A stretch of DNA of 64,000 nt, taken from Candidatus Saccharimonadales bacterium. Lineage in GTDB: Bacteria > Patescibacteriota > Saccharimonadia > QS-5-54-17. The notes under the pieces are model-generated. The model searched no databases and was not told where the DNA came from. It was given only the letters and a program-made list of their open reading frames with translations. Numbering within the stretch: the first letter of the stretch is position 1; the number at the start of each line of letters is the position of its first letter. Location of the stretch: the NCBI GenBank assembly GCA_040903985.1, contig JBBDUI010000002.1, forward strand, positions 599,633 through 663,632, read 5' to 3'. Positions 1 to 49,608 of this stretch are shown in pieces. Both the position numbers and the translations under genes were made by a program.

Positions 1-602
1 GCGGTTTGGGGGTCAATATCGTTTTGGGGATCGTATACGTTCCAGATGCGACAACCCTGTACGATTGAGTCCGAAGAGTACTGCTTAATACCATCGTGGT
101 AGCAATCATAGATATTACAGCCTACAGCAGCGAGTCGCGCATTAGCTGCGGTCCAGTAAATACCGTTCTCGCCCCCGCCGCCGGCACCTACGGCCTGCGA
201 ATGCTGACAGTACCAAGAGATGATTCGGTCGTTGCCGTTATCCCAGCCCGATCCTGCATGAAGGCGGAGCTCACGTTCAAATTTTAGACCCACAAACACT
301 ATCCGAGAACACCCCTCCATGGATAGTCTCTCATTGATAACCACGTTGCCTGGTGTTTCCGCCTTAAGAATCAACCAGTCGTCGTGGGTGGCATCGGCTA
401 GTAGACCGGCGCTATAGGTGCCGTTGGGTATGACTATAGTCTGTCCGCCGCTTTGATCAACGTAGGTTCTAAAATCGGGGCCCAGGTCGAGGGGCTCAGG
501 ATCTCCTGGTCCAGCACTCTGCTCCCACGCTACAGTAGAACCACTTTGAGCATTGACCCAACGGTTATTATCGGGATCGGCAAAGAAAGTATCTAAACTC
601 AT
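1..602 (-). CDS. Partial (C-terminus off window) right-handed beta-helix / pectate-lyase-fold protein, the downstream module of tail-fibre-like gene 599..1174. Its ATG at 602-600 overlaps the upstream TGA (ATGA).
   Basis: Manual translation of the minus strand gives MSLDTFFADPDNNRWVNAQSG...NGIYWTAANARLAAVGCNIYDCYHDGIKQYSSDSIVQGCRIWNVYD, with repeated beta-helix rungs of N-G-hydrophobic and Cys/His ladder residues. The ORF is absent from the track only because it runs off the window edge. Confidence 0.55.
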   Translation of the reverse strand, partial: MSLDTFFADPDNNRWVNAQSGSTVAWEQSAGPGDPEPLDLGPDFRTYVDQSGGQTIVIPNGTYSAGLLADATHDDWLILKAETPGNVVINERLSMEGCSRIVFVGLKFERELRLHAGSGWDNGNDRIISWYCQHSQAVGAGGGGENGIYWTAANARLAAVGCNIYDCYHDGIKQYSSDSIVQGCRIWNVYDPQNDIDPQT

Positions 603-1174
603 TCTGATGGTTTGACGAGACGGTCGCCAGAGTTAATATTAGCAGGAGTGGCGATTCCATTTTCGGGATCGGCCGGGTCTGAAGTATTAGATAGGCCAAC
701 GAAGACAATCGGATTGATTCCAGCTGACCTGGCCGGTGCGTCAGCAGACCAAACACCGGCTGCTGTCTCAATAATTGTAAGGCCCACCAAACTTGTTACT
801 CCGGCTCCGTTGTCAATTTCGGCTTTAGTGTAATAATCGGTGAGATCCGGCGTGGCCTTGAGGGTGTAGTTACCGTCCTCTGTTGTTGGAACCATGTCAT
901 CCGCTGCTTCAGTCGGGTCGGGTAGATTACCCTCACTACTTACGCCGCTCACCATATCATCTACGTACTGCTTAGTAGCGGCGTGAAGATCATTGGCGGG
1001 ATCGTCATTAAGGATGAGTGGGCCGGTTAAGGTGCCACCGTTGATGTCGAGTTTATTATCGATCTCAGCACCGCGTTTAAGTGTTCCATCGGAATTATGT
1101 TCAACGAGAAGATACTCGTTAAGGATATCTCCCCATACTCCTTGATCGGAACCTGGTATTGGTAGGCGCGCCAT
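599..1174 (-). CDS. Tail-fibre-like protein, N-terminal module only (191 aa): conserved leader plus collar motif.
   Basis: N-terminus MARLPIPGSDQGVWGDILNEYL is shared with 5 paralogs. GGTLTGPL...NDLHAATKQYVDD matches the phage tail-fibre / HylP-type collar motif. Confidence 0.7.
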   Translation of the reverse strand: MARLPIPGSDQGVWGDILNEYLLVEHNSDGTLKRGAEIDNKLDINGGTLTGPLILNDDPANDLHAATKQYVDDMVSGVSSEGNLPDPTEAADDMVPTTEDGNYTLKATPDLTDYYTKAEIDNGAGVTSLVGLTIIETAAGVWSADAPARSAGINPIVFVGLSNTSDPADPENGIATPANINSGDRLVKPSE

Positions 1175-1322
1175 AGGCAGTCTCCCCCGTGTTTATTTTC
1201 TAACTGCCTACGCTTATAGACACAAGTGAAGAGACGGGCTTAAGCTGTTGCATTTTAGCTTAATACTCATCTTCACTTTCTAATCTCACTCAGGCTTTAT
1301 GTATCCGATGAGTAAGGGCTTG

Positions 1323-1721
1323 TTAACCATCTAGGGGATCAACAAATCTAAGCTTAGTCCATTCACCAGTTGAGGGCTCATACGAGGCTAAATGTGCGAA
1401 GTAGATGGGCTGTTGCAGATGCTCTGGTATGAACTCTAGATCACCGTCTAGGGTTACCGCTAGGACGTGTTTAACTGTAGCTGCGCTAGGATCAAGGGTG
1501 AGGTTGTGCGTGGTAGCCATCGCGCTACATTTACCCTCTAGCTGATCACAAGTGGTAGCAGGAAGTAAGCTGTTTGATTGCTCAGCCATGAGCTGGCGGC
1601 ACGGGCGTAAGCCGGACAACTCTTGGATTATAACTGTTAGTGATCCATCAGTTACTTCGAAATCGCACCATGGGGTGGGGTGATTAGGATCGCGTCGAGA
1701 GACAATAGTCGAATCTATCAT
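1323..1721 (-). CDS. Hypothetical 132-aa protein whose start is coupled (TAATG overlap) to tail-fibre-like gene 1721..2458. Possibly a C-terminal receptor-binding or chaperone module.
   Basis: ORF with start/stop overlap to the upstream gene. I found no recognisable motif. Confidence 0.45.
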   Translation of the reverse strand: MIDSTIVSRRDPNHPTPWCDFEVTDGSLTVIIQELSGLRPCRQLMAEQSNSLLPATTCDQLEGKCSAMATTHNLTLDPSAATVKHVLAVTLDGDLEFIPEHLQQPIYFAHLASYEPSTGEWTKLRFVDPLDG

Positions 1722-2458
1722 TAGGTGCTCTCCATGGCGATAAGTGATTTACGAACGGCTGAAAAAGTATTATACGCACTGGCTCCAGTGGTAGAGCGAC
1801 TATAAACCTGAGCGAATGCCTGGTCTTGATTATTGGGATGCGCGGCTACTGTAACTACTGGGACTGTATTGAAGGCAGTGGTCCAGGTTACTGATTCGCT
1901 CTGAGCGGAACCGGCTGTAATTTTGGCTTCTATATGTGGTATGGGGGGTAAGTCAGCGTAAGCTAGGGCAGTCCCGGCGCCGTTGACTGTCGGCACTTGA
2001 CCCACTGTACCGATGGGGAGTCGGGTAGTGGTTGTGCCGTTGTGAGTTAAAAGATCACCTGATGTAGTAAGAGGAGTAGCACTCCCAAAAGCTACTCCGC
2101 CGCTTCCATCCGGTTGCAGTACTTTGCTAGCATCAACTTCCGTAGCGGCAAGTGACTCAATAACTAGCTCATCACTACCACCATTCTGGTGGCTAGCGGC
2201 ATGGGCACTAACCCCCAGGCTATCGACGTATCCTTTGGTAGCTGCATCACTATTATCGATAGGATTAGCTAGTCCAATGATGCGGTTACTACCTAAGTTA
2301 AGATTACCGCTCATAGTGCCACCACTTAGATTAAGTTTGGCATCTATATCACCCCCTCGCTTCAAGGTTCCGTCTGAGTCAAGCTCTACTTCAAGAAACT
2401 CATTGAGTATATGGCCCCAGGTTCCTTCATCGGCGCCCGGGATAGGTAATCGTGGCAT
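1721..2458 (-). CDS. Tail-fibre-like protein (245 aa) of the conserved-leader family.
   Basis: MPRLPIPGADEGTWGHILNEFLEVE leader. GGTMSGNLNL...DNSDAATKGYVDSL collar motif. Confidence 0.7.
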   Translation of the reverse strand: MPRLPIPGADEGTWGHILNEFLEVELDSDGTLKRGGDIDAKLNLSGGTMSGNLNLGSNRIIGLANPIDNSDAATKGYVDSLGVSAHAASHQNGGSDELVIESLAATEVDASKVLQPDGSGGVAFGSATPLTTSGDLLTHNGTTTTRLPIGTVGQVPTVNGAGTALAYADLPPIPHIEAKITAGSAQSESVTWTTAFNTVPVVTVAAHPNNQDQAFAQVYSRSTTGASAYNTFSAVRKSLIAMEST

Positions 2459-2729
2459 GGTGTGCTTGTATCCTTGTTTATTTCTTTGAAATACTCTTAA
2501 AAGAGGTGCAGCACACCTTAACTGTATCGCGGTTATGGTTTAGGGACAAGGGGGTGAACCTCCACCTGCCGGTAAAACTTATTTTTCTCGAGATACACCA
2601 AAGAGCTCTCAGCTGTTGCCCTTCGACATTGTTTACTTGCTGCAGGTGTCGGGTGTATATAGATGCAGAAAGCTTCAGTTACTGATCGATACAATGGTTC
2701 AACTAGGTATTACGGCGTAGAGGCCTGGC

Positions 2730-4232
2730 CTAATAGTGGCTAGCCTCTGGGGCTAGGAGCAGAGCCTCGGGCAGAGAATGTGGAAAAGTTATTGTAGATA
2801 GTTGTACGACACTTGTTGAGTAGGGTGTGAAGTACAGCTTGCCGTTAGGAGCTGCACACGCCCCTGAATTACTGATCCCAGAGCCGCTATAGATCTCCTC
2901 GACTTCTCCGGTAATCAAGTCACAAGCCACAAAGGCTGCCGGGACCGCGCTGCGATAGAAGTAGAGTCGTCCATCGTGCCCTAGCGCACCTGATCGGAAT
3001 ACCGCAGTTGTGGCGGGATGGACGAACTCTGCAGTCTGAGTCCACGGGTCAATACGAATATACCCCAGAGTCGCTGCAGTTGAAGAAGAGGGAAACAAAT
3101 ACACTGCACCATCAGGGCCAACACACCCGCCCACCCACTGACGGTTCGATTCCCCTTGAGCTCGGTCAAGCCCATAGTTTGTCTGCCAGGCTTCTTCAGT
3201 CTCGGGATCAATAACCAAGATGCCGTCCAGCGTATTTTGCAGACCATATGGAGCACAGTAGATCAACCCGTCAGGACCGAGCACTCCACCATGATATTTG
3301 AAGGACGCAGGCATATCTAGGCCCGGATCCCACCGCTTGGCGGTCCCTGCCACAGTGTCGATAATCAAGATATCGGTAGCGTTATACGGGATGCCCACAA
3401 TCTTGCCGGTAGCTGTTACTGCTGACCCATACCACTTGCCAGTGCCCGATAGGTCAAGGCCAAAGTTCTCAAGAGTAGCGGTGTTATCAGAAGGGTTAAT
3501 CACCAAGGAGAACTCACTGCTAGAGGGCATAGAGTAGACCTTGCCATCCAGGCCTAGTTGACCGCCCATCCATTTTGTGGAATCTGACATATCTAGTCCG
3601 AAATTTTCGAGAGTTGCCGTGTCGTTTGTCGAATCCACAACGATTACATTGTCGAAATTGCGAGGAAGCATATAGATCCGGCCATCAGGCGTAAGTACGC
3701 CACCACCCTCACATCGCTGACCAAAGGAGACCAAGCCTAGACCGTAGTCATTCATTGTAGCTACAGCAGAGGCTCCCTGTCGACGCAGGCCATGAACGTG
3801 TTGCTTCAGCAGGGAGACATAAGGCCCTTCATCTACCGTGGCAGAGAGAGGGGCCTTATCATCCAGTGCACTCTGGAGCCCGGAGACGGCGGCTATAGTA
3901 TGTACGCTACTGCCACTTGCATGATCGGAGAGTTCACTATCGGTGTAGCTCTCAGCTGTAGCTTCAGCTGCCGCTTGGGCCGCACCCACTAGACTGTCAA
4001 CGTAGGTCTTAGTTACGGCGTCTTGGGGGTCTTCTGGATCGGCTAGTCCGAGAATGCGGTTACTACTAAGTAATAACGGTCCAGTTAGAGTGCCGCCAGA
4101 TAAGCCAAGCTTACTGTCGATGTCACTACTGCGCTTTAGGCTACCGTCTGAATTCAGCTCGACACTCAAGAACTCGTTGAGAATATCACCCCAAACACCT
4201 TTATCCGAGCCAGGTATAGGTAGTCGAGCCAT
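2730..4232 (-). CDS. Tail-fibre-like protein (500 aa) with a C-terminal beta-propeller-like repeat domain.
   Basis: MARLPIPGSDKGVWGDILNEFL leader and GGTLTGPL...DAVTKTYVDSL collar. C-terminal half has about 6-7 repeats of approximately 47 aa with a G-x-L-x-P-D-G-x-I/V-Y-x-x-P pattern. Confidence 0.7.
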   Translation of the reverse strand: MARLPIPGSDKGVWGDILNEFLSVELNSDGSLKRSSDIDSKLGLSGGTLTGPLLLSSNRILGLADPEDPQDAVTKTYVDSLVGAAQAAAEATAESYTDSELSDHASGSSVHTIAAVSGLQSALDDKAPLSATVDEGPYVSLLKQHVHGLRRQGASAVATMNDYGLGLVSFGQRCEGGGVLTPDGRIYMLPRNFDNVIVVDSTNDTATLENFGLDMSDSTKWMGGQLGLDGKVYSMPSSSEFSLVINPSDNTATLENFGLDLSGTGKWYGSAVTATGKIVGIPYNATDILIIDTVAGTAKRWDPGLDMPASFKYHGGVLGPDGLIYCAPYGLQNTLDGILVIDPETEEAWQTNYGLDRAQGESNRQWVGGCVGPDGAVYLFPSSSTAATLGYIRIDPWTQTAEFVHPATTAVFRSGALGHDGRLYFYRSAVPAAFVACDLITGEVEEIYSGSGISNSGACAAPNGKLYFTPYSTSVVQLSTITFPHSLPEALLLAPEASHY

Positions 4233-7989: not shown

Positions 7990-8065
7990 GCGGGTGTAGC
8001 TCAGTTGATAGAGCGCGTCCTTGCCAAGGACGAGGCCACGAGTTTGAGTCTCGTCACCCGCACCA
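7990..8065 (+). tRNA. tRNA-Gly (anticodon GCC).
   Basis: Acceptor GCGGGTG/CACCCGC. Anticodon arm CGTCC-TTGCCAA-GGACG. T-arm ACGAG-TTTGAGT-CTCGT. CCA is encoded. Confidence 0.85.
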
Positions 8066-9580
8066 AAGTTGAGTTTTAGCGCCGTCAGGCGCTTTTTCTT
8101 TTTCCTCAATTACCAAGTTAAAAGGGTAATTCACGGTATATGACAAGTTTTTATCGTTCAGTTTAAGGTTAGAAACTAGGAATCCTAAGAGCTTGGAACG
8201 CTGCCCCTCATCTGCAAGCTGAAACAGCTCTGAAACTCGACTTACTAAATCTAACAGATATGAAGCGGTTACTAAGAAGTCCTTATTCCCTCTGGTTAGA
8301 ACATTTAGCCTATCATTGAGCTGTTGCTGTCTATTTGTTAATGTCTCTACAATTTTATCGTGTTGTTCTGGTGATATTTTTTCATCTACTAGTTTTTCAA
8401 ACCACATTTCAATTTTTTTGTCGATTGAATCATATTCCTCTCGAACTGATAGTAACGACTGTGAGTAATATTTTTGTTGGTCGTCGTGGTTATCTTTTAG
8501 TTCTTTAATAACTTTGTTTAATAGCTTTTCCGGAATATTTATCCTTTTTACAAGAGCTTCCATAGAGCCTAGTACGAGCGATTCTGCGGTGTTGGGGTTG
8601 CTACACTTAGAATTTGCACACTTGAGGTACACCCAACGTTTACACTGGAACGGGGAAATAGTACGACCACACTTACCGCAGCTTAGAATATCGCTAAAAT
8701 TGAAGTTTAGACTATCCCATTTGGTTTTCATTGATTTGCGCTTGTCTTTAATGAGCTGACACCTATTAAACAAGGCTCGGTCTATTAATGGTGCGTAATT
8801 ATGAGGGTAATCTTTTCCTTTCTGAGTCATCATTCCGTAATAAAACTTATTATTAATTATAGCTTCGACAGCCCCTTTGGATAGGGTAGTTTTACCAGTT
8901 TTACTGCTCGTAAAACCAGCTTTTGCTAATTCTTTAGCGATAAGGCTGTACGGCATTCCTATTGCCCTTAGCTCAAACGCTTTTACAATGTAATGCGCTC
9001 TTTGCTCATCGACCACAATATCTTTTAATGGCTTGTTGGGATTACTAGTAGGTATAGATATGTTTTGATATCCTATTGGCGCCCTGTGAACCCATATACC
9101 ATCATTTAACATCTGTTCAAAACGACGCTTTACATTGTCTCGGCTTGAATCGGAATAGTACTTAGCAAGCAGCATTCCTATACCAAGCCTGAATAAGTCT
9201 GTGGCTGGCGAACTAGATGATATGAATAAATTGTCTGATGGAAAATGTAGTTCTATTTTATCTTTTTCCACGAGCTGTCCCATTATTCTCACTTCTCTCT
9301 GTGAGGCGTCACGAGTAAAACGGTCTATTTTATCAAAGACAATTATCGCCTGTTCATTCAAAGACTGGATTTCATCTTCAATCAAAGAAGCGAATTTTTG
9401 CCTGGCGTCCTTGTAGGCACTTTCATCGAACTCATGGTATCGCCATTCTTTGTCTTTATAGTTCAAAGTTCTAGCATAGTTTTCAAGCCGTTGCTTCTGT
9501 GCGGGTAACGCTTTACGTTGCTGCACGTCCGATACCCTAGCGATTAATAGAATTGGTTTTTTATTGGTAGTAGCATTCAT
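8054..9580 (-). CDS. Large serine recombinase (integrase). Its stop codon overlaps the tRNA-Gly 3' end.
   Basis: N-terminal resolvase domain (ILLIARVSD catalytic Ser). Recombinase domain. C-terminal zinc ribbon CGKCGRTISPFQC...CANSKC. 508 aa. Confidence 0.85.
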   Translation of the reverse strand: MNATTNKKPILLIARVSDVQQRKALPAQKQRLENYARTLNYKDKEWRYHEFDESAYKDARQKFASLIEDEIQSLNEQAIIVFDKIDRFTRDASQREVRIMGQLVEKDKIELHFPSDNLFISSSSPATDLFRLGIGMLLAKYYSDSSRDNVKRRFEQMLNDGIWVHRAPIGYQNISIPTSNPNKPLKDIVVDEQRAHYIVKAFELRAIGMPYSLIAKELAKAGFTSSKTGKTTLSKGAVEAIINNKFYYGMMTQKGKDYPHNYAPLIDRALFNRCQLIKDKRKSMKTKWDSLNFNFSDILSCGKCGRTISPFQCKRWVYLKCANSKCSNPNTAESLVLGSMEALVKRINIPEKLLNKVIKELKDNHDDQQKYYSQSLLSVREEYDSIDKKIEMWFEKLVDEKISPEQHDKIVETLTNRQQQLNDRLNVLTRGNKDFLVTASYLLDLVSRVSELFQLADEGQRSKLLGFLVSNLKLNDKNLSYTVNYPFNLVIEEKEKAPDGAKTQLWCG

Positions 9581-9747
9581 GATTATATCCTTTACAAATA
9601 TATTATATTGTTATTTAGTAGTATTTTCTATCGTTTTAGCTTTAGCCTTTTGAGCTAGGTCTATTTGAATGAGTACATCTAGAAATCCTGCAAGGTTCTT
9701 TAAGTCTTTAGGAGTTTCTGTAGATGGATTGTTGGGTTGTTTGGGGG

Positions 9748-10275
9748 TTACCATTTGAAACCCCCGTAATGTGTCGAGAAAATATCCGCAATATTATTCT
9801 CAGTATTTTTTAATTTTGGTCTTTTTAGAACTTCATATTCTTTACTGGTCACTATTGAAGCAGGTACACTCCTCAATTTGTTCTGGTAATCTCCTTGTTT
9901 TCGAGGTAGCTGTGTACAAACTTTTTGGTGTTCGTACAGTTTTATGACACAAGGTATTAGGTCGTATGTGTTAGAAGTTCCTCGCTTATGTCTGCGTTTA
10001 ACGAACTGTTTTTCTTCCAGTTTTCTCAATCGTCTTTGAACGGTTGAATAACCTTTGTGAGAGAACTTGCATAGCCGAGTAATTGACGGGTATACCCGAC
10101 TATTGTGGCTGAACCAAAATGTTAGCAAGTGTATCAGTGTTAATGTCTCACCGTCTGTTAGCCCAAGATGACCCTGGCAAGCTAACAGTAAGTTTGGTAC
10201 CTGAGTGAAGTTAAACTCCTCTATTTCAGGTGACCATTTCTCTGAAAAACCGTATTCCTTGTTATTGGTTTTCAT
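9748..10275 (-). CDS. Winged-helix DNA-binding protein (replication-initiator or regulator-like), island-borne.
   Basis: FTQVPNLLLAC...LTDGETLTLIHLLTF...GYSTVQRRLRKLEEKQFVKR resembles wHTH replication or regulatory proteins of mobile elements. Confidence 0.4.
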   Translation of the reverse strand: MKTNNKEYGFSEKWSPEIEEFNFTQVPNLLLACQGHLGLTDGETLTLIHLLTFWFSHNSRVYPSITRLCKFSHKGYSTVQRRLRKLEEKQFVKRRHKRGTSNTYDLIPCVIKLYEHQKVCTQLPRKQGDYQNKLRSVPASIVTSKEYEVLKRPKLKNTENNIADIFSTHYGGFKW

Positions 10276-10425
10276 CGTATTTTCCTTTGCGATGAAGCCA
10301 GCCCAACGGAACGGTTGTTATTGGTGTTGGGTGGCTTCGTTGCCGTTCCAAACACCACTTTAGACATTAAAAAAGGAGCTGTAATAAAGCTCCTAAATTA
10401 CTCGATTTTAGTCGGTTTTAACTTC

Positions 10426-11283
10426 TTAGGTTGGTAATATTTCTCGGTTTGTTACGGTTTCGTCACGGTTAGATTTTAGCCATTTTTCGAACCACTCAAG
10501 TTGTTCTCCGCTTATCTCTTTCCAAGGGGTGAACCTTATTGTTTTCTGTGTAGTTCTTTCAAAAAATATCTTCTTTAACTCTCTATTGAAGTGGCAGTTT
10601 CTAACAAGTTCACTCAAATCGGTTTTCGTTTTACAGCCTTCAACTTTTTCTTGTATCTCGTGAATGCTTATCGGTCTATCATGATTTTTAAGAATATAAC
10701 GCATGAAGTTATACGGTGGGCTGTCGTATCTGAGTGGCTTGCCAAGTATTACATTTGCCCCTTCGATTAAATCAATACTTGCATACCTAAGTCCGACAGT
10801 TATTAAGTTATTTCGTAAATCAATAAAAATAATTTCTGACCTGTTTTTCTTGGTTTGGGTAGATTTATGTTTTTTATCAGTAAGGACGCTGTCGTGGTAC
10901 TGGTATTTTTCCAAATCTTTCTTTCTAGCTTTGTTTCTCACTGACTCAAAATTGTCCAGAATATTAACTTTATAATTTCTCAAAGACTTCATTTTTCCAA
11001 AAAGATAGTGATAGTCTACGTCAAGAATATCTGCCTTAAACGTTGGGTTGTTCAATGATATAGATCCATCATCTTCTAACTTTTTATTTGGCTTGGTGTA
11101 GGAGTACTTAATACATTCATAATCATCTTGTAATGCGTCTAGAATATATTTCTGGTCTTCAAGTCGTACACCCGCAACGTCCAAGTCCTCTGAGCTGAAA
11201 GATACCTTGTTACCCGATAATGATTCTTGCAGGAACCTATCAATCAGGTTGATTGCGATTAATATTTTTTCACGACCAGTCAT
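10426..11283 (-). CDS. Hypothetical protein (285 aa), island-borne. Possibly Abi-like.
   Basis: ORF only. AT-rich codon usage matches the island. No motif recognised. Confidence 0.35.
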   Translation of the reverse strand: MTGREKILIAINLIDRFLQESLSGNKVSFSSEDLDVAGVRLEDQKYILDALQDDYECIKYSYTKPNKKLEDDGSISLNNPTFKADILDVDYHYLFGKMKSLRNYKVNILDNFESVRNKARKKDLEKYQYHDSVLTDKKHKSTQTKKNRSEIIFIDLRNNLITVGLRYASIDLIEGANVILGKPLRYDSPPYNFMRYILKNHDRPISIHEIQEKVEGCKTKTDLSELVRNCHFNRELKKIFFERTTQKTIRFTPWKEISGEQLEWFEKWLKSNRDETVTNREILPT

Positions 11284-11349
11284 TAGTGTAAATTATACTC
11301 TATAATCCCATTCCTCACTGTTCCGCTCTTAGTTTTTGAATTTTTATTA

Positions 11350-11841
11350 CTAATGAAAACTAGTCGTGTAATGTACGAAAACCACTCGTTTGAGTGATGA
11401 GTTTGGGTGTCTGTCTGCAAAGTCTTCAACAGCTTTTTGAGCTATCATAATCACGTCTTCGTATGGATTGCCGTGTAAGCCTGAGCCTAACGCAGGAAAA
11501 GCCATGGACTCTACACCATAGTCATCTGCAAGTTCTAACGAAGTATAAAAGCACTTATAGAGTATCTTTGGCTCTTTACCTTTATGGTAGCCGTATATAG
11601 GCGCAACTGTGTGTATGACGTATTGAGCTGGTAAGTCGTAGGCTTCGGTAATCTTTGCTTCGCCATAATCACAGCCACCAAGTTCTTTACAGGCATTTGC
11701 TAGTTCGGGTCCTGCGATTGAATGGATTTTACTGTCTACACCACCGCCAGGAATGAGCTGAGTGTTGGCTGCATTCACGATAATATCTGCATGGAGTTTT
11801 GTTATATCCCAATTCATTTCTTCTAGTCTTAATGTACGCAT
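11350..11841 (-). CDS. Stand-alone macro domain protein (ADP-ribose binding or hydrolase).
   Basis: IVNAANTQLIPGGGVDSKIHSIAGPEL and GLHGNPYE motifs are canonical macro-domain signatures. Confidence 0.8.
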   Translation of the reverse strand: MRTLRLEEMNWDITKLHADIIVNAANTQLIPGGGVDSKIHSIAGPELANACKELGGCDYGEAKITEAYDLPAQYVIHTVAPIYGYHKGKEPKILYKCFYTSLELADDYGVESMAFPALGSGLHGNPYEDVIMIAQKAVEDFADRHPNSSLKRVVFVHYTTSFH

Positions 11842-11842
11842 T

Positions 11843-12085
11843 CTAGTATTCGTTCCTCATGGCATTAATAAAATCTAGTAATGCTGGTTTACGGTTCATG
11901 CCATATTTTTTGTTGAGTTCTTTAGTTTTGGCGATAGTTGCTTCGTTAATACGATATATTACTGGTTGAGCGAGCTGTTTGGCAGTTTCTCTATCTATTT
12001 CGCCCGTCCTATATTTGTGTTGAATAGTAGCGATATCAGCTCTGTTTTTGACTGCTTGCTCAATGTTCTTTTCCATACTTCGCAT
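11843..12085 (-). CDS. Small hypothetical protein (80 aa) ending 1 nt upstream of the macro gene start. Possible partner (toxin or regulator).
   Basis: ORF with 1-nt spacing to the macro gene. No motif. Confidence 0.35.
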   Translation of the reverse strand: MRSMEKNIEQAVKNRADIATIQHKYRTGEIDRETAKQLAQPVIYRINEATIAKTKELNKKYGMNRKPALLDFINAMRNEY

Positions 12086-12212
12086 TCTGTATAGAAAATT
12101 AGAGGAATGCGAGCCGTAAAGTAGCCTTTCTGAGCTATTCTCAGCCTCTCTACGCTGTGTTTAGTGCAGATTAATAACTATGGACTATAAACAGAGGTGT
12201 TTATAGCGTACA

Positions 12213-15200: not shown

Positions 15201-15308
15201 GAGCAAGAAATCAAAAACACTGATTATGAAATCAACCAGTCTGTCTATTCACTGTACGGTTTAACAAATGAAGAAATTGAAATTATTGATAAGCAAACAA
15301 ATGAATAA
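12213..15308 (+). CDS. Type IIG/IIL single-chain restriction-modification enzyme (MmeI/Eco57I-like): N-terminal PD-(D/E)xK nuclease, gamma-class N6-adenine MTase, C-terminal TRD.
   Basis: N-terminal LPDAV...VVELKG (PD..ExK). MTase motif I VVDPACGSGAFLV and motif IV VVGNPPWVF. 1031 aa. Confidence 0.8.
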   Translation: MLHNMASLFGKNKLRDIATKLQTSDLEDKIAIVKTWHNDYHKGSLKADKETSREQAYNHDFFIKILGYKEKPTVPYSFEPKATTDKGQLPDAVLSHTDVTQDIKNIAAVVELKGASIELDRPQRREGNMSPVQQGFKYKTQYRNCPFVVVSNFWEFRLYHDNQLDYELWTLDDLVDPDDDYLKFKTFYTLLHSDNLTTPKGASKTEGWLSDIRYEQEEIGKKFYKMYREARLDLLRDIYRHNQTVRSDIDMGIEKAQKIIDRIVFACFAEDRGLLPDNTLQRVIQAADKSAFGGSLWSTFKAFFEAIDVGSEKLEIPDGYNGGLFAHDPTLNALKVSDEPLRKVANISNYNFEEDLSVTILGHIFEQSISDLEEIKSKVEETKSLDSFQQSRRKKDGIFYTPDYIVRYIVDNSLGAYLRGEEERLKSEFKLKGDITDKNYEKRERQAYSKYQEFLQNVKVVDPACGSGAFLVYVFDYLLAENKRVASILGNNLFSSEDYIKSILQNNIYGVDLNDESVEITKLSLWLKSAQKGKKLTTLDNNIKCGNSLIDDSEVAGDKAFVWEKEFPEIFAKGGFDIVVGNPPWVFTREGGFTQGSKDFISAYIENKSITTESRGLNIQKGKINLYAVFIAKGLDLLTKGGVLSYIVPNSILRATPYEAFRKYLLDNFAIKQIVNLGAGIFSGVTASSVILSIGRKEGISSNYETEIIIDIQNPNEKSRLEQNNFSNNASYVFNILAKKEEVTLTTKILSNHIVLGNIAKFISPGIDGDKSKYVSKERLSDDYKPLLFGKSFGRYTINFDNNYILYDRSKLNRARKEEIFTSDKIIIQRISGGLNPLRCTLDVEQFYTFNSVNNVILKDDSGVSAHYVLALLNSRLLNWYYSTNFSNKSTLTVNISKTFLEKLPIAIGLKGEQDSLEKLTKKILSLYSKQDQVLTRIEKVILSEYQIEKWPTKLNKWWLIDFATFVKTLKITLTLSQKDELMILYEKYRKELLALEQEIKNTDYEINQSVYSLYGLTNEEIEIIDKQTNE

Positions 15309-16777: not shown

Positions 16778-16788
16778 ATTTGTAAATT

Positions 16789-18261: not shown

Positions 18262-18311
18262 GTTAAACGTAAGCAATATAGTTATCAACCAAACAACGAT
18301 ACAATAATCTT

Positions 18312-19787: not shown

Positions 19788-20039
19788 CTAAGTAATCAAA
19801 TCTGCCGACAGATTAAATTGCCTTACTAAATCCTGTAACTTATAATTGTCTACATTGCCTTGGTTAGCGGTTAGAAATACACCAGCTATCCGGCACCAAA
19901 TGCTTAATTATCAAACTATGAACAAACCCTGACTACTTTATTGAAGCTGAGTATGGACAATAACCCTAGACTGCACAGTTGCGCCATCAACCATAACCGC
20001 TGTAGAGTATGGATATAACAAACGGTAGTAAAACATTCT

Positions 20040-21407
20040 ATGCCCCGCCTACCAATCCCCGGATCAGACGAAGGAACATGGGGTGATATCCTCAACGAGT
20101 TCCTCAGCGTCGAACTAGCTAGTGATGGCTCTCTCAAACGCGGTACCGAGCTAACCCAGAAGCTCAACCGTAGTGGCGACACCATGGGCGGCAATCTCAG
20201 TCTTGGTGGAAACCGTATCATCGGGTTAGCCGACCCCACCAACGCTACTGATGCGGCTACTAAGAACTATGTAGATACAGCTGATATAGCATCCCACACC
20301 ACCACCCACCAATCCGGCGGAACTGACGAACTGAACGTCGATGGCCTCTCCGGTGAATTAGCCGACCCTCAAATACCGAAAGGCCACTCACTGGGTGGTA
20401 TAGAACACAGTGCTACCACCCTGGCTGCCCTCAACGCCAAGCTCAGTGACGCCACCCTTGATGATGCCAGTGCTACTCGTACCCCAACTGAGCACGGTAA
20501 TGAAGCCCATTCCGCTACCTTCATCACGGCTGCCGAAGCCCCTGTTCAGTCCGTCAACGGTAACACCGGTATTGTTTCACTCGATGCCAGTGATGTAGGA
20601 GCTGATCCCTCCGGTACCGCTACCACAGCTGTTACTGATCATGAGGCAGCAGCAGATGCACATTCAGCTACCAGCATTGAGTTCGATCCGACCGGCCTTT
20701 CATACACTACAGCGATAGATGTCCAACAAGCCATCACCGAGCATGATCAGGCGATTGGTGATGGTACGTCGGGGCCGCCGCAGGTAGACACGTTCACAGC
20801 GTCGGGGACATGGGTCAAGCCGACCGGAGCGAAGCTTGTCGTTGCTCATGTCGTTGCTGCCGGTGGGGGAGGATCAGAACAGGATGGGTTCGGCGACGGT
20901 GGCGGAGGTGGGGGCGGGTCGCTACTCATTGTTGTATCCGCTGATGAACTTGATGCGACCGAGATAGTCACGGTCGGCTCAGGAGGGGCTGGTGCAACGG
21001 CCGGTGCATCGGCGGGTAATGGTGGCAGCAGCGCTTTCGCAGGCTACAGTGTCACCGGCGGGGGAGGATCGCGTAACCCTACAGGAAACAGCAAAGGTGG
21101 CGGGCACGACGGAGGTGCCGGCAGCTCTGGTGGAGCCCCCGTCGGTGCAGCTTTTGGTGGTGGTGGGGGGGGCCGGAGTTCGGGCTCGGCAATCCCTGGG
21201 GCTGGTTCGGTCTACGGCGGCGGCGGCGGTAGTACAAATGGAGCAGCCGGTGGGCCTTCGACGTTCGCTGGTGCAGGTGGTGTTGGGTCGACTGGCAGCG
21301 GAACGGGCGGTGCGGGCGGCATTCCCGGCGGCGGCGGCGGCGGGTCGCTGACTGGAACGGGCGGAGCAGGTGCCCGTGGCGAGGTTCGTATTACAACCTA
21401 CTTCTGA
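20040..21407 (+). CDS. Tail-fibre-like protein (455 aa) with a C-terminal Gly-rich module.
   Basis: MPRLPIPGSDEGTWGDILNEFLSVE leader. GDTMGGNLSL...TNATDAATKNYVDT collar. FTASGTWVKPTGAKLVVAHVVAAGGGG followed by about 200 aa of Gly-rich sequence ending GGAGARGEVRITTYF. Confidence 0.7.
   Translation: MPRLPIPGSDEGTWGDILNEFLSVELASDGSLKRGTELTQKLNRSGDTMGGNLSLGGNRIIGLADPTNATDAATKNYVDTADIASHTTTHQSGGTDELNVDGLSGELADPQIPKGHSLGGIEHSATTLAALNAKLSDATLDDASATRTPTEHGNEAHSATFITAAEAPVQSVNGNTGIVSLDASDVGADPSGTATTAVTDHEAAADAHSATSIEFDPTGLSYTTAIDVQQAITEHDQAIGDGTSGPPQVDTFTASGTWVKPTGAKLVVAHVVAAGGGGSEQDGFGDGGGGGGGSLLIVVSADELDATEIVTVGSGGAGATAGASAGNGGSSAFAGYSVTGGGGSRNPTGNSKGGGHDGGAGSSGGAPVGAAFGGGGGGRSSGSAIPGAGSVYGGGGGSTNGAAGGPSTFAGAGGVGSTGSGTGGAGGIPGGGGGGSLTGTGGAGARGEVRITTYF
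21165..21172 (+). repeat. G8 homopolymeric tract inside the Gly-rich coding region of 20040..21407.
   Basis: Read directly (tggtGGGGGGGGcc). Confidence 0.8.
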
Positions 21408-39740: not shown

Positions 39741-40003
39741 AAGTTAAATTAAAAATTATAATCTATGCAAGGTATCTAGACGTACGCCTTATTAGGCGCG
39801 GGCGTGTAGTATAGTTTGACCATAAAACGGATATAACTCAGATATTCTGTAAACTGTACTTGGTCCATTAGCTAAGTGAGGGTGTAGTTGTTTGCACCCC
39901 TTAACCATAAATGGTAAAATTGAGATATTGTAATCAATCGTTACCACGGAGGCTAATCTGCCTATTATGAACAGTAATTTATTTCTGAGCATAAGGTTAA
40001 CTT

Positions 40004-40987
40004 ATGTCTAGACTTCCTATTCCCGGCTCTGACGATGGAGTCTGGGGAGACATTCTAAACGAATACCTCCAGCACGAGCATAACGAGGATGGTACGCATA
40101 AAACAGTTCCTGTTTCCAGGGGCGGTACCGGTGCTATCAACGCTTCTGCCGCTAGAACAAACTTGGATGCTGCAGCTAGCGATCATAACCACGATGTCGA
40201 TTACGAAGTCGCCGGAGCAGTCTCTACTCATGCTTCCGAGGTTACAAGTGTGCATGGTATCGCTGACACCTCAGTGCTTGAAACTACTACCGGTGCTCAA
40301 GGTAAGGTGGATACCCATGCCTCCGATACAACAAGTGTCCACGGCATAGCCGATACTTCGGTCCTCGAGACTTCAGCCGGTGCTCAAGCAAAAATTGATG
40401 CACACACCGAGGCAAGTGATCCTCACTCTAATTACTTAGATACGACTCGCCATGAGGCTTTAGACCACTCCTCTGTACTTGCTACAGCCGCCTTATCAGA
40501 CCTCGGATCACTGGATGCCGGTTCGAGCAGAATCACAAATATAATCGACCCATCCAGCCCTCAGGACGCCGCAACAAAAGATTATGTAGATACCAATATT
40601 CCTTCAGCATTAAATGACTTGTCTGATGTTGATACTTCGGGCGGATCCGAGGGCGACTCTCTTACTCAGCAGGCTGATGGAACGTTTGCACCGCAGCAAA
40701 ACACGCACCCTACAAGCCTTCGCCCGCATACCTCAACGCTAGGCCCAGTGGCGTACAGGATGTCGAGAACCGGAAAGGATGAAAACGGTATTTTCACTAC
40801 GGTTAACTGGCATCGTCCTGACGACACCCTTGCCGTTCAGTCGGTACTGTCGGGTGGAACAACACCAACCTATACTGCTCGAACAGTTACGGAATATGCA
40901 GCAAATGGTGTCGATGTGTTGGAAACCACGACCTACACGCTTTCTTACGATGGTGACGGTGATCTTATTGCGGAGATATTCGCATGA
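40004..40987 (+). CDS. Tail-fibre-like protein (327 aa) with internal tandem approximately 27-aa repeats.
   Basis: MSRLPIPGSDDGVWGDILNEYL leader. Repeats TSVHGIADTSVLETTTGAQGKVDTHASDT appear twice. ATKDYVDT collar motif. Confidence 0.7.
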   Translation: MSRLPIPGSDDGVWGDILNEYLQHEHNEDGTHKTVPVSRGGTGAINASAARTNLDAAASDHNHDVDYEVAGAVSTHASEVTSVHGIADTSVLETTTGAQGKVDTHASDTTSVHGIADTSVLETSAGAQAKIDAHTEASDPHSNYLDTTRHEALDHSSVLATAALSDLGSLDAGSSRITNIIDPSSPQDAATKDYVDTNIPSALNDLSDVDTSGGSEGDSLTQQADGTFAPQQNTHPTSLRPHTSTLGPVAYRMSRTGKDENGIFTTVNWHRPDDTLAVQSVLSGGTTPTYTARTVTEYAANGVDVLETTTYTLSYDGDGDLIAEIFA

Positions 40988-41646
40988 TTAGTATGCTCGA
41001 CGCACATGGCATCGTTGGCGGCGGAGGTAATGCAGAGAAAGTTCTAATGAGTCAGGCATTTACTGTATCTGGACAGTTCGTCGTACCTAGCGGAGTTACT
41101 GAGATATTAATCTCTGCTATTGGCGCTGGCGGGGGTGGCGGGTATGCCCATAATGGAGGATATGGCTGGTCGATGCGAGGCGGCGGCGGAGGTAGTGGTT
41201 ACTACTTTCCAAAGACTCGATACACCGTTACGCCAGGTATCACTCTGACGGTTACTATTGGCTCGGGCGGGGCAGGCCAATCTAGTGGAAATTCTTCCCC
41301 TGGCCCCGGTGGTAGTACTGTAGTTTCTGGCACGGGAGTATCAATTACTGCTGGCGGAGGAGCAGCGGGTAATGGTGCTGCTGAAGGCAATCCTGGGTCT
41401 GGCACAGGTTCTAGTCACTTTTGGCGGGGTGGGGCGGCTGGACGTGCAGGCTACGTTCAGAACGGCAGTGGTTCTGGTGCAGGCGGAGGTCCGTTAGGTG
41501 GAGCGAGTAAGACGTCGGGAGGCTCGGGCAATGCTGGTGGAGTAGGATCCGGTGGAAGCGGTGGGCATAACTCAACAGGTAGCGGGAGTGTCTACGCTGG
41601 TGGAGCAGGAGGTCGTGGAGAAGTCTTGATTGAGTGGTACGAATAA
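40984..41646 (+). CDS. Gly-rich tail-fibre C-terminal module encoded as a separate ATGA-coupled gene (220 aa).
   Basis: FTVSGQFVVPSGVTEILISAIGAGGGGG...GGAGGRGEVLIEWYE is homologous to the C-terminal half of 20040..21407. Confidence 0.6.
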   Translation: MISMLDAHGIVGGGGNAEKVLMSQAFTVSGQFVVPSGVTEILISAIGAGGGGGYAHNGGYGWSMRGGGGGSGYYFPKTRYTVTPGITLTVTIGSGGAGQSSGNSSPGPGGSTVVSGTGVSITAGGGAAGNGAAEGNPGSGTGSSHFWRGGAAGRAGYVQNGSGSGAGGGPLGGASKTSGGSGNAGGVGSGGSGGHNSTGSGSVYAGGAGGRGEVLIEWYE

Positions 41647-43828: not shown

Positions 43829-43853
43829 CTCTACCTAAAGATAAAAGGAGAGT

Positions 43854-48318: not shown

Positions 48319-49608
48319 ATGCCACGTTTACCGATACCGGGTTCTGATGAAGGAACATGGGGTGACCTCCTCAATGAGTTTCTTGAGGTAGAACATAGTG
48401 CTGACGGTACTCTAAAACTCACCGATACTATAGCTAGTAAATATGTGAAGCCCACTTCCGGTATTCCGAAGTCAGATCTAGCCGCCCCGGTTCAGTCTTC
48501 ACTTGATGCGGCCGATGCCGCAGCGGCACAATCGGCTTTGGATGATCATGTTAACGACACTTCGGCCGCCCATGCTGCTTCAGCTGTTTCATTTGCGCCA
48601 GCTGGTGCTATCTCGGCTACTACGGTGCAGGCGGCTATTGAAGAAGTGGCAACGGAAGCAGGCTCTTCGATCACTTTATCTGATGCTAGCCCTTCAGCCC
48701 TAGCAGCGGCCGCAGCTGCTGGTGTGTCAAATGAGATATCTCGCCATGACCATGTCCATCCCGATACCGGTTTAGCTACTGAGACGGCTCTCGATAGCCA
48801 TACTACTGCTACCACTGGCGTGCATGGTATTGCGGATACATCAGTACTTGAGACTAGTACCGGTGCTCAGACTAAAGTTGACGCCCATGCTGGAGACACT
48901 ACCGCCGTGCACGGTATTGCCGATACTTCAGTATTAGAGACGACCACTGGAGCACAGGCTAAGGTAGACGTACATACTGGAGACGGCGTTGATGCCCATG
49001 CTGCTACAGCTATCTCTTATGATAATACGGCCTCAAGTCTAACTGCTACTGACAGCCAAGCGGCTATCGATGAGTTAGTAACTACGTTATCCAGCACTCA
49101 ATTAGCCGACCTCGCCGATGTGGTTGAGACTGCTGCAAGCGATGGGCAGGTTTTAACCTTTGACACCACCAACGGTTGGCAGCCAGAGACTCCAGCAGTC
49201 GGGATAACCAGTCATAGCGGCTTAAGCGATCTTGGAGCTGATGATCATCTCCAGTACCAGATCGCCGATATAGCGCAGTTTGCTAGGGAGGGCACTCTAT
49301 CGGTGGCTAGTGGACGTGGCCGCTACCGTTTTCCTTATACTGCTACTATCTTGGGTGTCTCAGCCGCCGTCGATACGGCGCCGGTTGGATCCGGGATAAC
49401 GATCGATGTGAACAAGAACGGCACCACTATCTACACCACTCAGGGCAACCGTCCTAGTGTAAGTGATGGAACTAACGATGCTGCTGAGACTACACCGGAT
49501 GTCACTGCCGTGGCTAGTGGTGATCATTTAACAGTAGATATCGATACGGTTGGCTCATCTACTCCGGGAGCGGATTTGACGGTTTTCGTCCGTTATGCAC
49601 GAGCCTAA
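48319..49608 (+). CDS. Tail-fibre-like protein (429 aa) of the conserved-leader family.
   Basis: MPRLPIPGSDEGTWGDLLNEFLEVE leader. The same approximately 27-aa repeats (TTGVHGIADTSVLETSTGAQTKVDAH) as in 40004..40987. Confidence 0.7.
   Translation: MPRLPIPGSDEGTWGDLLNEFLEVEHSADGTLKLTDTIASKYVKPTSGIPKSDLAAPVQSSLDAADAAAAQSALDDHVNDTSAAHAASAVSFAPAGAISATTVQAAIEEVATEAGSSITLSDASPSALAAAAAAGVSNEISRHDHVHPDTGLATETALDSHTTATTGVHGIADTSVLETSTGAQTKVDAHAGDTTAVHGIADTSVLETTTGAQAKVDVHTGDGVDAHAATAISYDNTASSLTATDSQAAIDELVTTLSSTQLADLADVVETAASDGQVLTFDTTNGWQPETPAVGITSHSGLSDLGADDHLQYQIADIAQFAREGTLSVASGRGRYRFPYTATILGVSAAVDTAPVGSGITIDVNKNGTTIYTTQGNRPSVSDGTNDAAETTPDVTAVASGDHLTVDIDTVGSSTPGADLTVFVRYARA

What the first reader, a model, noticed from the sequence alone, without database searches (positions are those of the whole stretch)
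1..4232. Three tandem family members with ATGA/TAATG-coupled separate C-terminal module genes
Within 4.2 kb, three leader genes lie head-to-tail on the minus strand. Two of them are truncated, N-module-only proteins (191 and 245 aa). Their stops overlap the start of a downstream gene: TGA/ATG at 599-602 leads into a pectate-lyase-like beta-helix protein that continues off the window, and TAA/ATG at 1719-1723 leads into a 132-aa protein. The third, 2730..4232, has leader and beta-propeller fused. Split and fused architectures therefore coexist. This suggests module exchange by recombination at the collar, or heteromeric fibres assembled from an anchor subunit plus a distal subunit. The beta-helix module is the fold of polysaccharide depolymerases and tailspikes, which fits cell-surface glycan recognition or degradation.
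Basis: seen in the sequence. Interest (0 to 1): 0.7.

Follow-up and report, generated by a model that had tools for sequence, protein, structure and literature searches.

The report
Phage-fibre-like gene family in Saccharibacteria
Three neighbouring operons of a tiny parasitic bacterium (Saccharibacteria) encode proteins built like phage tail fibres, sharing a 33-residue start but carrying different sugar-binding or sugar-cutting ends that are either fused on or supplied by a tightly coupled next gene, which looks like a mix-and-match surface-recognition kit.

Summary
Three minus-strand genes (599-1174, 1721-2458, 2730-4232) share a conserved N-terminus, and the ATGA and TAATG stop/start overlaps are exact.

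The window is chromosome of a Candidatus Saccharimonadales MAG. It holds three more paralogues. Relatives were found mostly in Saccharibacteria genomes, and in Streptomyces phages.

All have a 33-aa leader. Most then have the "collar" motif of podophage fibres and HylP, followed by variable shafts and tips.

About 40% of family genes are followed by a coupled gene. These encode beta-helix, Gly_rich_2, lectin, glycosidase or esterase modules.

Corrections:
- The 245-aa protein is not truncated. Its tip and the 132-aa partner form a two-gene cassette also found in a 68% GC phage-like contig, so the partner looks like a tip-specific accessory or chaperone.
- The beta-helix call for the 339-aa protein is weak, and that protein is an orphan.
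- The operon has a third coupled gene beyond the window.

Frameshift artefacts are very unlikely. How the leader works (anchor, cap or export tag) is unknown. I found no description of the family in the literature I could search.

The parts
1..602 (-). First 200 of 339 codons of A339, the gene coupled to A191. It is possibly a right-handed beta-helix protein and continues beyond the window. A third, GTGA-coupled 232-aa gene (A232) follows it outside the window.
   Evidence: Translation. The full gene and its neighbours come from the source contig. Pfam Beta_helix E 6e-4, below the cut-off. No homologue in 5.8 billion proteins. The AlphaFold2 model is unusable.
599..1174 (-). A191: a short 'stub' family member. 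It has the leader (codons 1-33, 1076-1174), a shortened collar (956-1072) and a tail ending ...ATPANINSGDRLVKPSE. No recognisable tip domain.
   Evidence: No Pfam or NCBIfam domain. Its C-terminal tail resembles those of other short coupled leaders, e.g. L061 ...APANRQPGDHIIDTGA.
1323..1721 (-). B132: the 132-aa partner of B245. Its start overlaps the B245 stop (TAATG), and an SD-like GGAGAG lies 8 nt upstream.
   Evidence: It has one homologue (P0123, 49% identity), which is also a separate gene with the same 1-nt overlap after a fibre gene. No family, fold or PHROG match.
1721..2458 (-). B245: a complete small fibre. It has the leader (2360-2458), the collar (2219-2356), a shaft with a DUF5907-like stretch, and a C-terminal tip. 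Residues 66-227 (1778-2263) are shared with a foreign fibre.
   Evidence: 42% identity over 171 aa to the L085 fibre, E 1e-21. PHROG tail-fibre hits. The collar matches solved podophage fibres.
2730..4232 (-). C500: a fused family member. It has the leader (4134-4232), the collar (3993-4130), an Ala-rich linker, and seven ~46-aa propeller-like repeats (about 2748-3704).
   Evidence: Pfam DUF6923 at 29.6 bits against a cut-off of 27. Seven repeats at residues 177, 223, 269, 315, 368, 415 and 457.
20040..21407 (+). D455: a paralogue with the leader, the collar and a fused Gly_rich_2 domain.
40004..40987 (+). E327: a paralogue with the leader, His/Thr-rich repeats and an internal collar motif. 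It is ATGA-coupled to the next gene.
40984..41646 (+). E220: a separate Gly_rich_2 protein coupled to E327. It is the split counterpart of the D455 C-terminus.
   Evidence: Pfam Gly_rich_2 E 1.3e-10 over the full profile. Junction ATGA. SD-like GGAG 8 nt upstream.
48319..49608 (+). F429: a paralogue with the leader, repeats and a C-terminal tip of the '...TVDIDTVGSSTPGADLTV...' type. It has no coupled gene.
   Evidence: The same tip type is followed by a DMFA2_C gene in L016 and L060.

Best explanation
The 4.2-kb stretch holds three separate operons of a multigene family found mostly in Saccharibacteria. The family encodes phage-tail-fibre-like, probably trimeric, modular proteins.

Every member starts with a 33-residue leader (M-x-R-L-P-I-P-G-x-D-x-G-x-W-G-x-x-L-N-E...) that is under strong protein-level constraint. 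In most members the leader is followed by the 'collar' motif. In podophage fibres and HylP hyaluronidases, that motif joins the attachment domain to the shaft. After the collar come interchangeable shafts and distal modules.

The distal module is either fused or supplied by a downstream gene that is translated by termination-reinitiation.
- C500 has a fused seven-repeat propeller-like domain.
- A191 is a stub. I infer that its function is completed by A339 (probably a beta-helix) and A232, encoded in coupled genes, as a heteromeric fibre or complex.
- B245 is a complete fibre. B132 is most likely a tip-specific assembly chaperone or accessory that is inherited together with the tip.

I infer that the family diversifies by swapping cassettes at the leader and collar junctions. 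I also infer that it serves glycan recognition or degradation on other cells, plausibly the actinobacterial host of this epibiont.

Shown: the gene structure, the homology, the coexistence of fused and split forms, the cassette conservation, and the domain content. Inferred: trimeric state, physical association of the partners, extracellular location, and the role of the leader.
For: Family and anatomy:
- establish the genes and the shared N-terminus.
- Leader third-codon positions are only 27-52% identical, while the peptide is 64-88% identical. This points to selection on the peptide, not recent gene conversion.
- The collar matches solved podophage fibres (23sh_r, 8i4m_e, 8vbx_R, T7 gp17) and HylP. 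It also matches Pfam BppL_N and Phage_T7_tail.

Genuine genes rather than frameshifts:
- An independent assembly is identical over 12.6 kb, including all junctions.
- The downstream frames are closed upstream of their ATGs.
- An SD-like GGAG lies 6-9 nt before three of the four downstream starts.
- 27 of 44 downstream starts in other loci lie within -4 to +3 nt of the leader gene's stop.

Fused and split forms:
- Searches show the same modules in both states.
- Coupled leaders are shorter, median 277 aa against 476 aa.
- L061 is an architectural twin: a 119-aa leader, then a 314-aa Beta_helix protein, then a 338-aa protein.
- Phage GiJojo gp34 is the leader fused to a pectate-lyase beta-helix.

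Cassette:
- The B245 tip and B132 are conserved as two genes in the 68% GC phage-like contig L085, with homology starting at the collar.

Glycan theme:
- Downstream domains include GH16, GH64, GDSL and BD-FAE esterases, Laminin_G_3 and F5/8 type C.
Against: - None of the five proteins tested (A191, the N-terminal 200 aa of A339, B245, B132, C500) has a hydrophobic N-terminal stretch that could be a signal peptide or membrane anchor. Export is therefore unexplained.
- No baseplate-like or other phage structural genes lie nearby. What the leader would attach to is unknown.
- A339, A232 and B132 have no functional annotation. Their structure predictions failed or were weak.
- Physical association of the partners is untested.
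- The same leader sits in Streptomyces phage genes outside the tail module. That argues against a simple 'anchor to the cell' role.
- Only one homologue supports the B245/B132 cassette.
Confidence: 0.6

Rival explanations
1. The downstream genes are ordinary operon partners with no physical link to the fibre. In this reading they are enzymes and lectins that are merely co-expressed with a leader protein, and the fused forms are unrelated domain accretions.
For: - ATGA and TAATG overlaps are common in compact bacterial operons (established knowledge).
- A339, A232 and B132 share no detectable docking motif with each other.
- No complex could be modelled.
Against: - The same module types recur both fused to the leader and as the next gene.
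- Short leaders lacking a tip are the ones followed by coupled genes.
- The tip and partner co-inherit across very distant genomes.
Confidence: 0.2
2. This is a polymorphic toxin-immunity system. The leader would be a trafficking domain, the variable C-termini or downstream enzymes would be cell-wall-degrading effectors, and small downstream proteins such as B132 would be immunity proteins.
For: - A conserved N-terminus with hypervariable C-termini, many paralogues, small tightly coupled downstream ORFs and hydrolase domains all resemble polymorphic toxin loci (established knowledge).
Against: - The only B132 homologue follows a tail-fibre gene in a phage-like structural cluster.
- Most downstream proteins are larger than the leader proteins and are lectins or enzymes rather than immunity-sized proteins.
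- Shaft, collar and collagen content is fibre-like.
- No known toxin domain was found.
Confidence: 0.07
3. These are tail-fibre genes of a resident or decayed prophage or tailocin, and the leader docks on its baseplate.
For: - Tail-fibre homology.
- The leader is present in Streptomyces phages.
- A mobile island with a serine recombinase lies 4 kb away.
Against: - Six paralogues are scattered among housekeeping genes over 49 kb, with no capsid, tail or baseplate genes.
- The three-gene cluster has the genome's own 50% GC, unlike the 38% GC island.
- Positional conservation next to tatC holds across many Saccharibacteria.
- No match in IMG/VR, although that scan was pattern-limited.
Confidence: 0.08
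4. The split genes are frameshifted pseudogenes or assembly errors of single long ORFs.
For: All three overlaps put the downstream gene in the -1 frame. A single-base error could in principle create this.
Against: - A second assembly of the reads is identical.
- An ATG or GTG lies exactly at each junction, and the frame is closed 9-10 codons upstream.
- SD-like motifs lie inside the upstream gene.
- The B245/B132 split is conserved, with the same TAATG overlap, at 42-49% protein identity.
- The same split architecture occurs in L061, L058 and L076.
Confidence: 0.03

Closest known systems
Podophage tail fibres and tailspikes with the T7 gp17-type junction motif, and prophage HylP hyaluronidases (PDB 23sh, 8i4m, 8vbx, 7boz, 2dp5)
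   Same: They share the collar motif (GGT-x-x-G-x-L...N-R-I-x-G-L-x-x-P...D-A-x-T-K-x-Y-V-D) at the start of the shaft. They also share a modular shaft and distal beta-helix, lectin or enzyme modules.
   Different: The ~100-150-aa virion-attachment domain is replaced by a 33-aa leader with no PDB or Pfam match. The genes are chromosomal and multi-copy, with no virion genes nearby.
Branched dual receptor-binding-protein systems of Klebsiella phages (KP32 gp37/gp38 type; PMC13082707, PMC13579863)
   Same: There is an anchor protein plus a separately encoded enzymatic receptor-binding protein in the adjacent gene. The N-terminal structural part is modular and the C-terminal specificity part is exchangeable.
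   Different: In the phage systems the second protein docks on a T4 gp10-like branching domain of the first. A191 has no such domain. Only a few other family members carry Collar plus Gp10_C. Docking here is untested.
Tail-fibre tip plus Tfa-type chaperone or adhesin cassettes (lambda Stf/Tfa, Mu S/U, T4 gp37/gp38; from established knowledge)
   Same: A small gene lies immediately downstream of the fibre gene. It overlaps that gene and is inherited with the fibre tip while the N-terminal part differs. The B245 tip/B132 pair against the L085 fibre/P0123 pair shows this pattern.
   Different: B132 has no sequence or fold similarity to known Tfa or gp38 families. Chaperone activity is inferred only.
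Leader-bearing genes of Streptomyces BE-cluster phages (BRock gp186, GiJojo gp34, pSt2308, LuckySocke, Alone3)
   Same: They carry the same leader, 49-61% identical over the first 33-58 residues. It is fused to collagen repeats or a pectate-lyase beta-helix.
   Different: There is a single copy per phage. It lies within the tRNA array rather than next to tail genes. No collar motif was noted in GiJojo gp34.
Polymorphic toxin systems
   Same: A conserved N-terminal module, variable C-termini, many paralogues and tightly linked downstream genes.
   Different: No toxin or immunity domains were found. The content is fibre, lectin and glycosidase modules.

Membership tests
Phage tail-fibre / receptor-binding-protein-like proteins | Sequence motifs of fibre shafts and junctions (T7 gp17 N-terminal end, BppL_N, DUF5907, collagen, Collar) | tested here: met
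Phage tail-fibre / receptor-binding-protein-like proteins | Encoded in a virion or tail gene module and attached to a particle | tested here: not met
   The neighbours are a two-component system, tRNAs, ligase, LeuRS, rpsP and tatAC. No capsid or tail genes are present.
Phage tail-fibre / receptor-binding-protein-like proteins | Homotrimeric fibre structure | not testable with these tools
   Only monomer AlphaFold2 was available, and both jobs went to the partner proteins.
Right-handed beta-helix / pectate-lyase-like fold (for A339) | Significant match to a beta-helix profile, or a confident beta-helix model | tested here: inconclusive
   Pfam PF13229 E 6.4e-4, 19.8 bits against a cut-off of 25.9. 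No PDB, NCBIfam or PHROG hit. AlphaFold2 pLDDT 35. The analogous L061 gene does pass the Pfam threshold, but it is not detectably homologous to A339.
Beta-propeller (for the C500 C-terminus) | Tandem blades of about 40-50 aa | tested here: met
   Seven repeats about 46 aa apart. Pfam DUF6923 above threshold. The fold itself was not modelled.
Anchor-branch heteromeric receptor-binding-protein system | Short anchor protein lacking a distal domain, followed by a separately encoded distal protein | tested here: met
   A191 followed by A339 and A232. L061, L058, L076, L032 and L056 are analogous.
Anchor-branch heteromeric receptor-binding-protein system | Physical docking of the second protein on the first | not testable with these tools
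   No multimer prediction and no experiment.
Fibre tip plus Tfa-like chaperone cassette (B245/B132) | Small downstream gene co-inherited with the tip while the N-terminal part differs | tested here: met
   Only one independent example.
Fibre tip plus Tfa-like chaperone cassette (B245/B132) | Homology to known Tfa, gp38 or gp57 families | tested here: not met
Tat substrates | N-terminal S/T-R-R-x-F-L-K motif followed by a hydrophobic h-region | tested here: not met
   The leader has a single Arg, is acidic and has no hydrophobic stretch. Only synteny with tatC is seen.
Frameshifted pseudogenes | Homology or an open frame continuing across the junction, and fused orthologues of the same sequence | tested here: not met

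The most novel reading that the evidence does not exclude
Saccharibacteria have domesticated a combinatorial set of phage receptor-binding modules. The 33-residue leader would be a dedicated assembly, anchoring or export tag. It would mount interchangeable lectin and depolymerase tips, fused or as coupled subunits, on the epibiont surface to recognise and open the envelope glycans of actinobacterial hosts.

Three leads point this way:
- A tip cassette is shared with a 68% GC actinophage-like element.
- The leader is shared with Streptomyces phages.
- Leader genes lie beside tatC in about a quarter of the loci. That hints that folded fibres might leave the cell by a non-canonical, possibly Tat-linked, route.
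Probability: 0.3. Interest if true: 0.85.

Novelty: new variant of a known kind. Interest (0 to 1): 0.6.

Why it matters
How ultra-small epibiotic Patescibacteria choose and attach to their hosts is largely open. Type IV pili and unnamed adhesins are the known players (PMC10633639, PMC12206443).

A large, rapidly diversifying chromosomal family of phage-fibre-like proteins carrying lectin and depolymerase modules would be an obvious candidate for host-range determinants. Its modules are shared with actinophages.

It would also give a natural example of fused and split receptor-binding architectures side by side, and a defined 33-residue tag whose partner can be sought experimentally.

If instead the proteins are intracellular or phage remnants, the finding reduces to an ordinary modular gene family.

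Tried and rejected
- **AlphaFold2 of A339 without homologues:** pLDDT 35, unusable, so no fold search was run.
- **AlphaFold2 of B132 with a two-sequence alignment:** pLDDT 57. Foldseek against BFVD gave nothing with E below 0.79.
- **Exhaustive HMM search with the 81-column leader-plus-collar profile:** it was swamped by the collar repeat (14,651 hits, many with 5-35 copies per protein). It says little about the leader itself. A leader-only profile should have been used.
- **Homologue searches for A339** returned only itself.
- **Searches for A232** found nothing in phages or in JGI metagenomes.
- **Searches for B132** found no further relatives in metagenome or viral contigs.
- **Local jackhmmer** of A339, A232, B132 and the A191 C-terminus against 707 proteins of the related loci found nothing.
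- **IMG/VR scan for the leader** was negative, but it was limited to exact peptide patterns.
- **NCBIfam** gave nothing.
- **Literature searches** on Saccharibacteria plus tail fibre or collagen-like, on DUF5907, and in the Southlakia paper and its supplements found no description of the family.
- **Recent gene conversion among the paralogues** was considered and rejected, because third-codon positions are near saturation.
- **Programmed -1 frameshifting** was considered. No slippery heptamer is evident by eye at the junctions, and no systematic search was run.

Full report
**Source and context**

The 191-aa protein is identical to WD467_03255 of a Candidatus Saccharimonadales MAG (GCA_040876815.1, contig JBBDOY010000002.1, 739 kb). 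The window is ordinary chromosome. It carries a PAS histidine kinase and response regulator, tRNAs, DNA ligase, LeuRS, rpsP, trmD, tatA/tatC, comEC and a P-type ATPase. A 38% GC island at about 8-20 kb lies next to tRNA-Gly. It carries a serine recombinase and a MmeI-type restriction-modification enzyme, and it is a separate mobile element.

**Checking the observation**

The three minus-strand ORFs are at the stated coordinates: 599-1174 (A191), 1721-2458 (B245) and 2730-4232 (C500).

Their first ~80 residues are 53-70% identical, with tblastn E values of 1e-22 to 1e-32 inside the window. Three more paralogues lie at 20040 (D455), 40004 (E327) and 48319 (F429).

Eighteen positions of the first 30 residues are invariant among the six. 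Thirteen are invariant among 79 members from other genomes. Third-codon positions of the leader are only 27-52% identical, while the peptide is 64-88% identical. So the similarity reflects purifying selection on the peptide in old paralogues, not recent conversion.

The overlaps are exact: ATGA at 599-602 and TAATG at 1719-1723.

**Extending the contig**

- The gene that runs off the window is 339 aa (A339).
- It is followed by a third gene, A232, whose GTG start overlaps the A339 stop (GTGA). tRNA-like sequence follows it in the intergenic DNA.
- Operon A is therefore A191, then A339, then A232.
- Operon B is B245, then B132.
- C500 stands alone.
- Intergenic gaps of 148 and 271 nt separate the three units.

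**Are the split genes artefacts?**

Very unlikely, for five reasons.

- A Logan assembly of run SRR27977661 is identical to the NCBI contig over 12,607 nt, covering every junction.
- The downstream frames are closed 9-10 codons upstream of their start codons.
- An SD-like GGAG sits 6-9 nt before the starts of B132, E220 and A232.
- The only homologue of B132 (P0123, 49% identity) is also a separate gene. It starts with the same TAATG overlap after a fibre gene on another contig.
- The split leader/beta-helix and leader/Gly-rich arrangements recur in unrelated genomes.

**What the proteins are**

Residues ~35-80 (the 'collar') match several known motifs:
- the end of the Pfam T7 tail-fibre N-terminal domain and BppL_N;
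- PHROG tail-fibre families;
- solved podophage fibres at their residues ~105-155, and HylP hyaluronidases.

This motif is a widespread repeat unit. The leader-plus-collar profile hit 14,651 representative proteins, and the listed top hits aligned mainly through the collar part. Many carry 5-35 copies.

Residues 1-33 (the 'leader') have no Pfam, NCBIfam or PDB match.

A pattern scan of 185,579 species genomes gave 148 confirmed sites. Most of the 79 loci kept are from MAGs labelled Saccharibacteria or Saccharimonadales. Several genomes appear in more than one locus, and several loci carry two or three leader genes. A few contigs are labelled as other phyla. They have Saccharibacteria-like GC, and two of them carry Saccharibacteria-like LepA or TatC.

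Among 50,697 phage records, the leader occurs only in Streptomyces BE-cluster phages.
- In BRock it heads a collagen-repeat protein.
- In GiJojo gp34 it is fused directly to a pectate-lyase-type beta-helix.

**Domain census**

| Pfam family | 79 leader proteins | 38 tightly following genes |
|---|---|---|
| Collagen | 18 | - |
| DUF5907 | 16 | - |
| BppL_N | 8 | - |
| Pect-lyase_RHGA_epim | 5 | - |
| Gly_rich_2 | 4 | 4 |
| Beta_helix | 3 | 2 |
| DUF4082 | 3 | - |
| PTR | 3 | - |
| Laminin_G_3 | - | 4 |
| DMFA2_C | - | 2 |
| fn3 | - | 2 |
| Gp80 | - | 2 |
| Phage_tail_C | 1 | 1 |

Single leader proteins also carry Collar, CBM_5_12 or DUF6923. Single downstream proteins carry GH64, GH16, GDSL lipase, BD-FAE, alpha/beta hydrolases or F5/8 type C.

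**Fused against split**

Automatic detection found a same-strand ORF starting within 30 nt of the stop for 43 of 84 leader genes. After I removed ten doubtful cases, 33 remained. Of the 44 downstream starts found, 27 lie within -4 to +3 nt. Coupled leaders are shorter, median 277 aa against 476 aa.

Three module types occur in both states:
- **Gly_rich_2** is fused in D455, L043 and L038. It is separate in E220, L058 and twice in L076.
- **Beta-helix / pectate-lyase** is fused in eight Saccharibacteria members and in GiJojo gp34. It is separate in L061 and, weakly, in A339.
- **A ~115-aa tip** forms the C-terminus of L057, L062, L021 and L029. It is a separate 158-aa gene in L064.

**Two kinds of coupled leader**

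*Stubs.* Very short leaders (92-280 aa) lack a tip. They mostly end in a similar tail, such as ...P-x-G-T-P-x-G-T-I/L-I/V... or ...G-D-I-W.... A191 (...ATPANINSGDRLVKPSE) belongs here. So does its architectural twin L061 (119 aa...APANRQPGDHIIDTGA). In L061 the leader is followed by a 314-aa protein that passes the Pfam Beta_helix threshold and then by a 338-aa fn3 protein.

*Complete fibres.* Other coupled leaders have their own tip. B245 is one. Residues 66-227, running almost to its C-terminus, are 42% identical (E 1e-21) to the distal half of a 346-aa fibre on L085. L085 is a 68% GC contig with overlapping phage-like structural genes, and its fibre matches actinophage proteins. That fibre has a different N-terminal domain, and the homology starts exactly at the collar's P-x-x-x-x-D-A-x-T-K-x-Y-V-D. 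It is followed by the B132 homologue.

A tip plus a small downstream gene inherited as a unit behind different N-termini is the classical pattern of tip-specific chaperone or adhesin cassettes (lambda Stf/Tfa, Mu S/U, T4 gp37/gp38; established knowledge). I therefore read B132 as such an accessory, not as a detached C-terminal module. There is no sequence or fold evidence for this.

**Weak points**

- A339 is an orphan. Its beta-helix assignment rests on a sub-threshold Pfam hit, and the structure model failed.
- A232 has only a faint paralogue in the window, at 47218-48195 (pairwise E 5e-4).
- The five proteins tested have no signal-peptide-like hydrophobic stretch, and no particle genes are nearby.
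- Where these proteins act, and what the leader does, therefore remain inferred. The leader could be an anchor, a trimer cap or an export tag.
- The leader's presence in phage genes outside the tail module fits a self-contained cap or a tag better than a cell-specific anchor.

**A lead on export**

tatC lies within 6 kb of a leader gene in 20 of 79 loci. It is usually immediately upstream or divergent. In the window, tatA/tatC sits between E327/E220 and F429.

The leader is not a canonical Tat signal: it has a single Arg, is acidic and has no h-region. The loci are also partly orthologous, so this is a lead, not evidence of Tat export.

**Verdict**

It is wrong in detail for B245 and B132, and the beta-helix call for A339 is over-confident.

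The kind of thing, modular phage receptor-binding proteins with cassette exchange and accessory genes, is well known. Its existence as a conserved multi-copy chromosomal family in an epibiotic phylum is a new variant. The family has a distinctive leader shared only with Streptomyces phages. I found no description of it in the literature I could search.

Noticed in passing
window 43652-44936 (tatA/tatC); loci L018, L020, L041, L046, L047, L050, L055, L061, L064, L066, L072 and others: tatC lies within 6 kb of a leader gene in 20 of 79 Saccharibacteria loci, usually directly upstream or divergent. lepA recurs in 10 loci. In the window, tatAC sits between E327/E220 and F429. The leader is not a canonical Tat signal.
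   Followed up: partly
window 45022-45219 (+): A 65-aa ORF lies just after tatC. It has a Tat-like n-region (D-R-K-Q-F-L), then a hydrophobic stretch, and a tail ending ...GYGGSAYGA. Small ORFs with YG(G/C)GxYG-like motifs also lie near tatC in L018, L066, L069 and L084.
   Followed up: no
window about 8000-20000: A 38% GC island (the genome is about 50%) lies beside tRNA-Gly (7990-8065). It carries a serine recombinase (8054-9580, -), a Macro-domain protein, a MmeI-type restriction-modification enzyme (12213-15308), HARE-HTH, DUF2779 and DUF8370/8371. It is probably an integrated mobile or defence element, and paralogue D455 starts right after it.
   Followed up: no
window 2533-2540 (-), 19989-19996 (+), 39903-39910 (+): AACCATAA lies 44-94 nt upstream of three leader genes (B245, D455, E327). 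There are 5 matches in the window against 2 expected. B245 and D455 share the longer AACCATAACCGC. This may be a shared promoter or operator.
   Followed up: partly
L087 7001-8398 (Streptomyces phage GiJojo gp34); L086 6001-6738 (BRock gp186): The only isolated phages with the leader are Streptomyces BE-cluster phages. The gene sits inside their tRNA array rather than next to tail genes. The annotated starts appear to lie upstream of the conserved leader Met; in BRock the annotated CDS overlaps a tRNA.
   Followed up: partly
window 45629-47155 and 47218-48195 (+): Two paralogous proteins (508 and 325 aa) share a C-terminal Ig_Rha78A_N-like domain. They lie between tatC and F429. The 325-aa protein is faintly similar to A232, the third gene of operon A.
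   Followed up: partly
proteins P0124-P0273: The collar motif is a repeat unit present 5-35 times in giant proteins of up to about 5,400 aa. The leader-plus-collar profile gave 14,651 representative proteins, and the listed top hits aligned mainly through the collar part.
   Followed up: no
L047 7567-9048; L064 7492-8970: GH64 beta-1,3-glucanase plus fn3 proteins are the third genes of leader operons. They begin M-x-x-F-(G/T)-R-R-L-Q, a twin-arginine-like motif without an obvious h-region.
   Followed up: no
C-termini of short coupled leaders (A191 at window 599-650; L030, L032, L045, L049, L056, L058, L061, L070, L076, L078): Stub leaders end in a recurrent short tail, such as ...P-x-G-T-P-x-G-T-I/L-I/V... 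or ...G-D-I-W.... This may be a docking strand for the downstream protein.
   Followed up: partly
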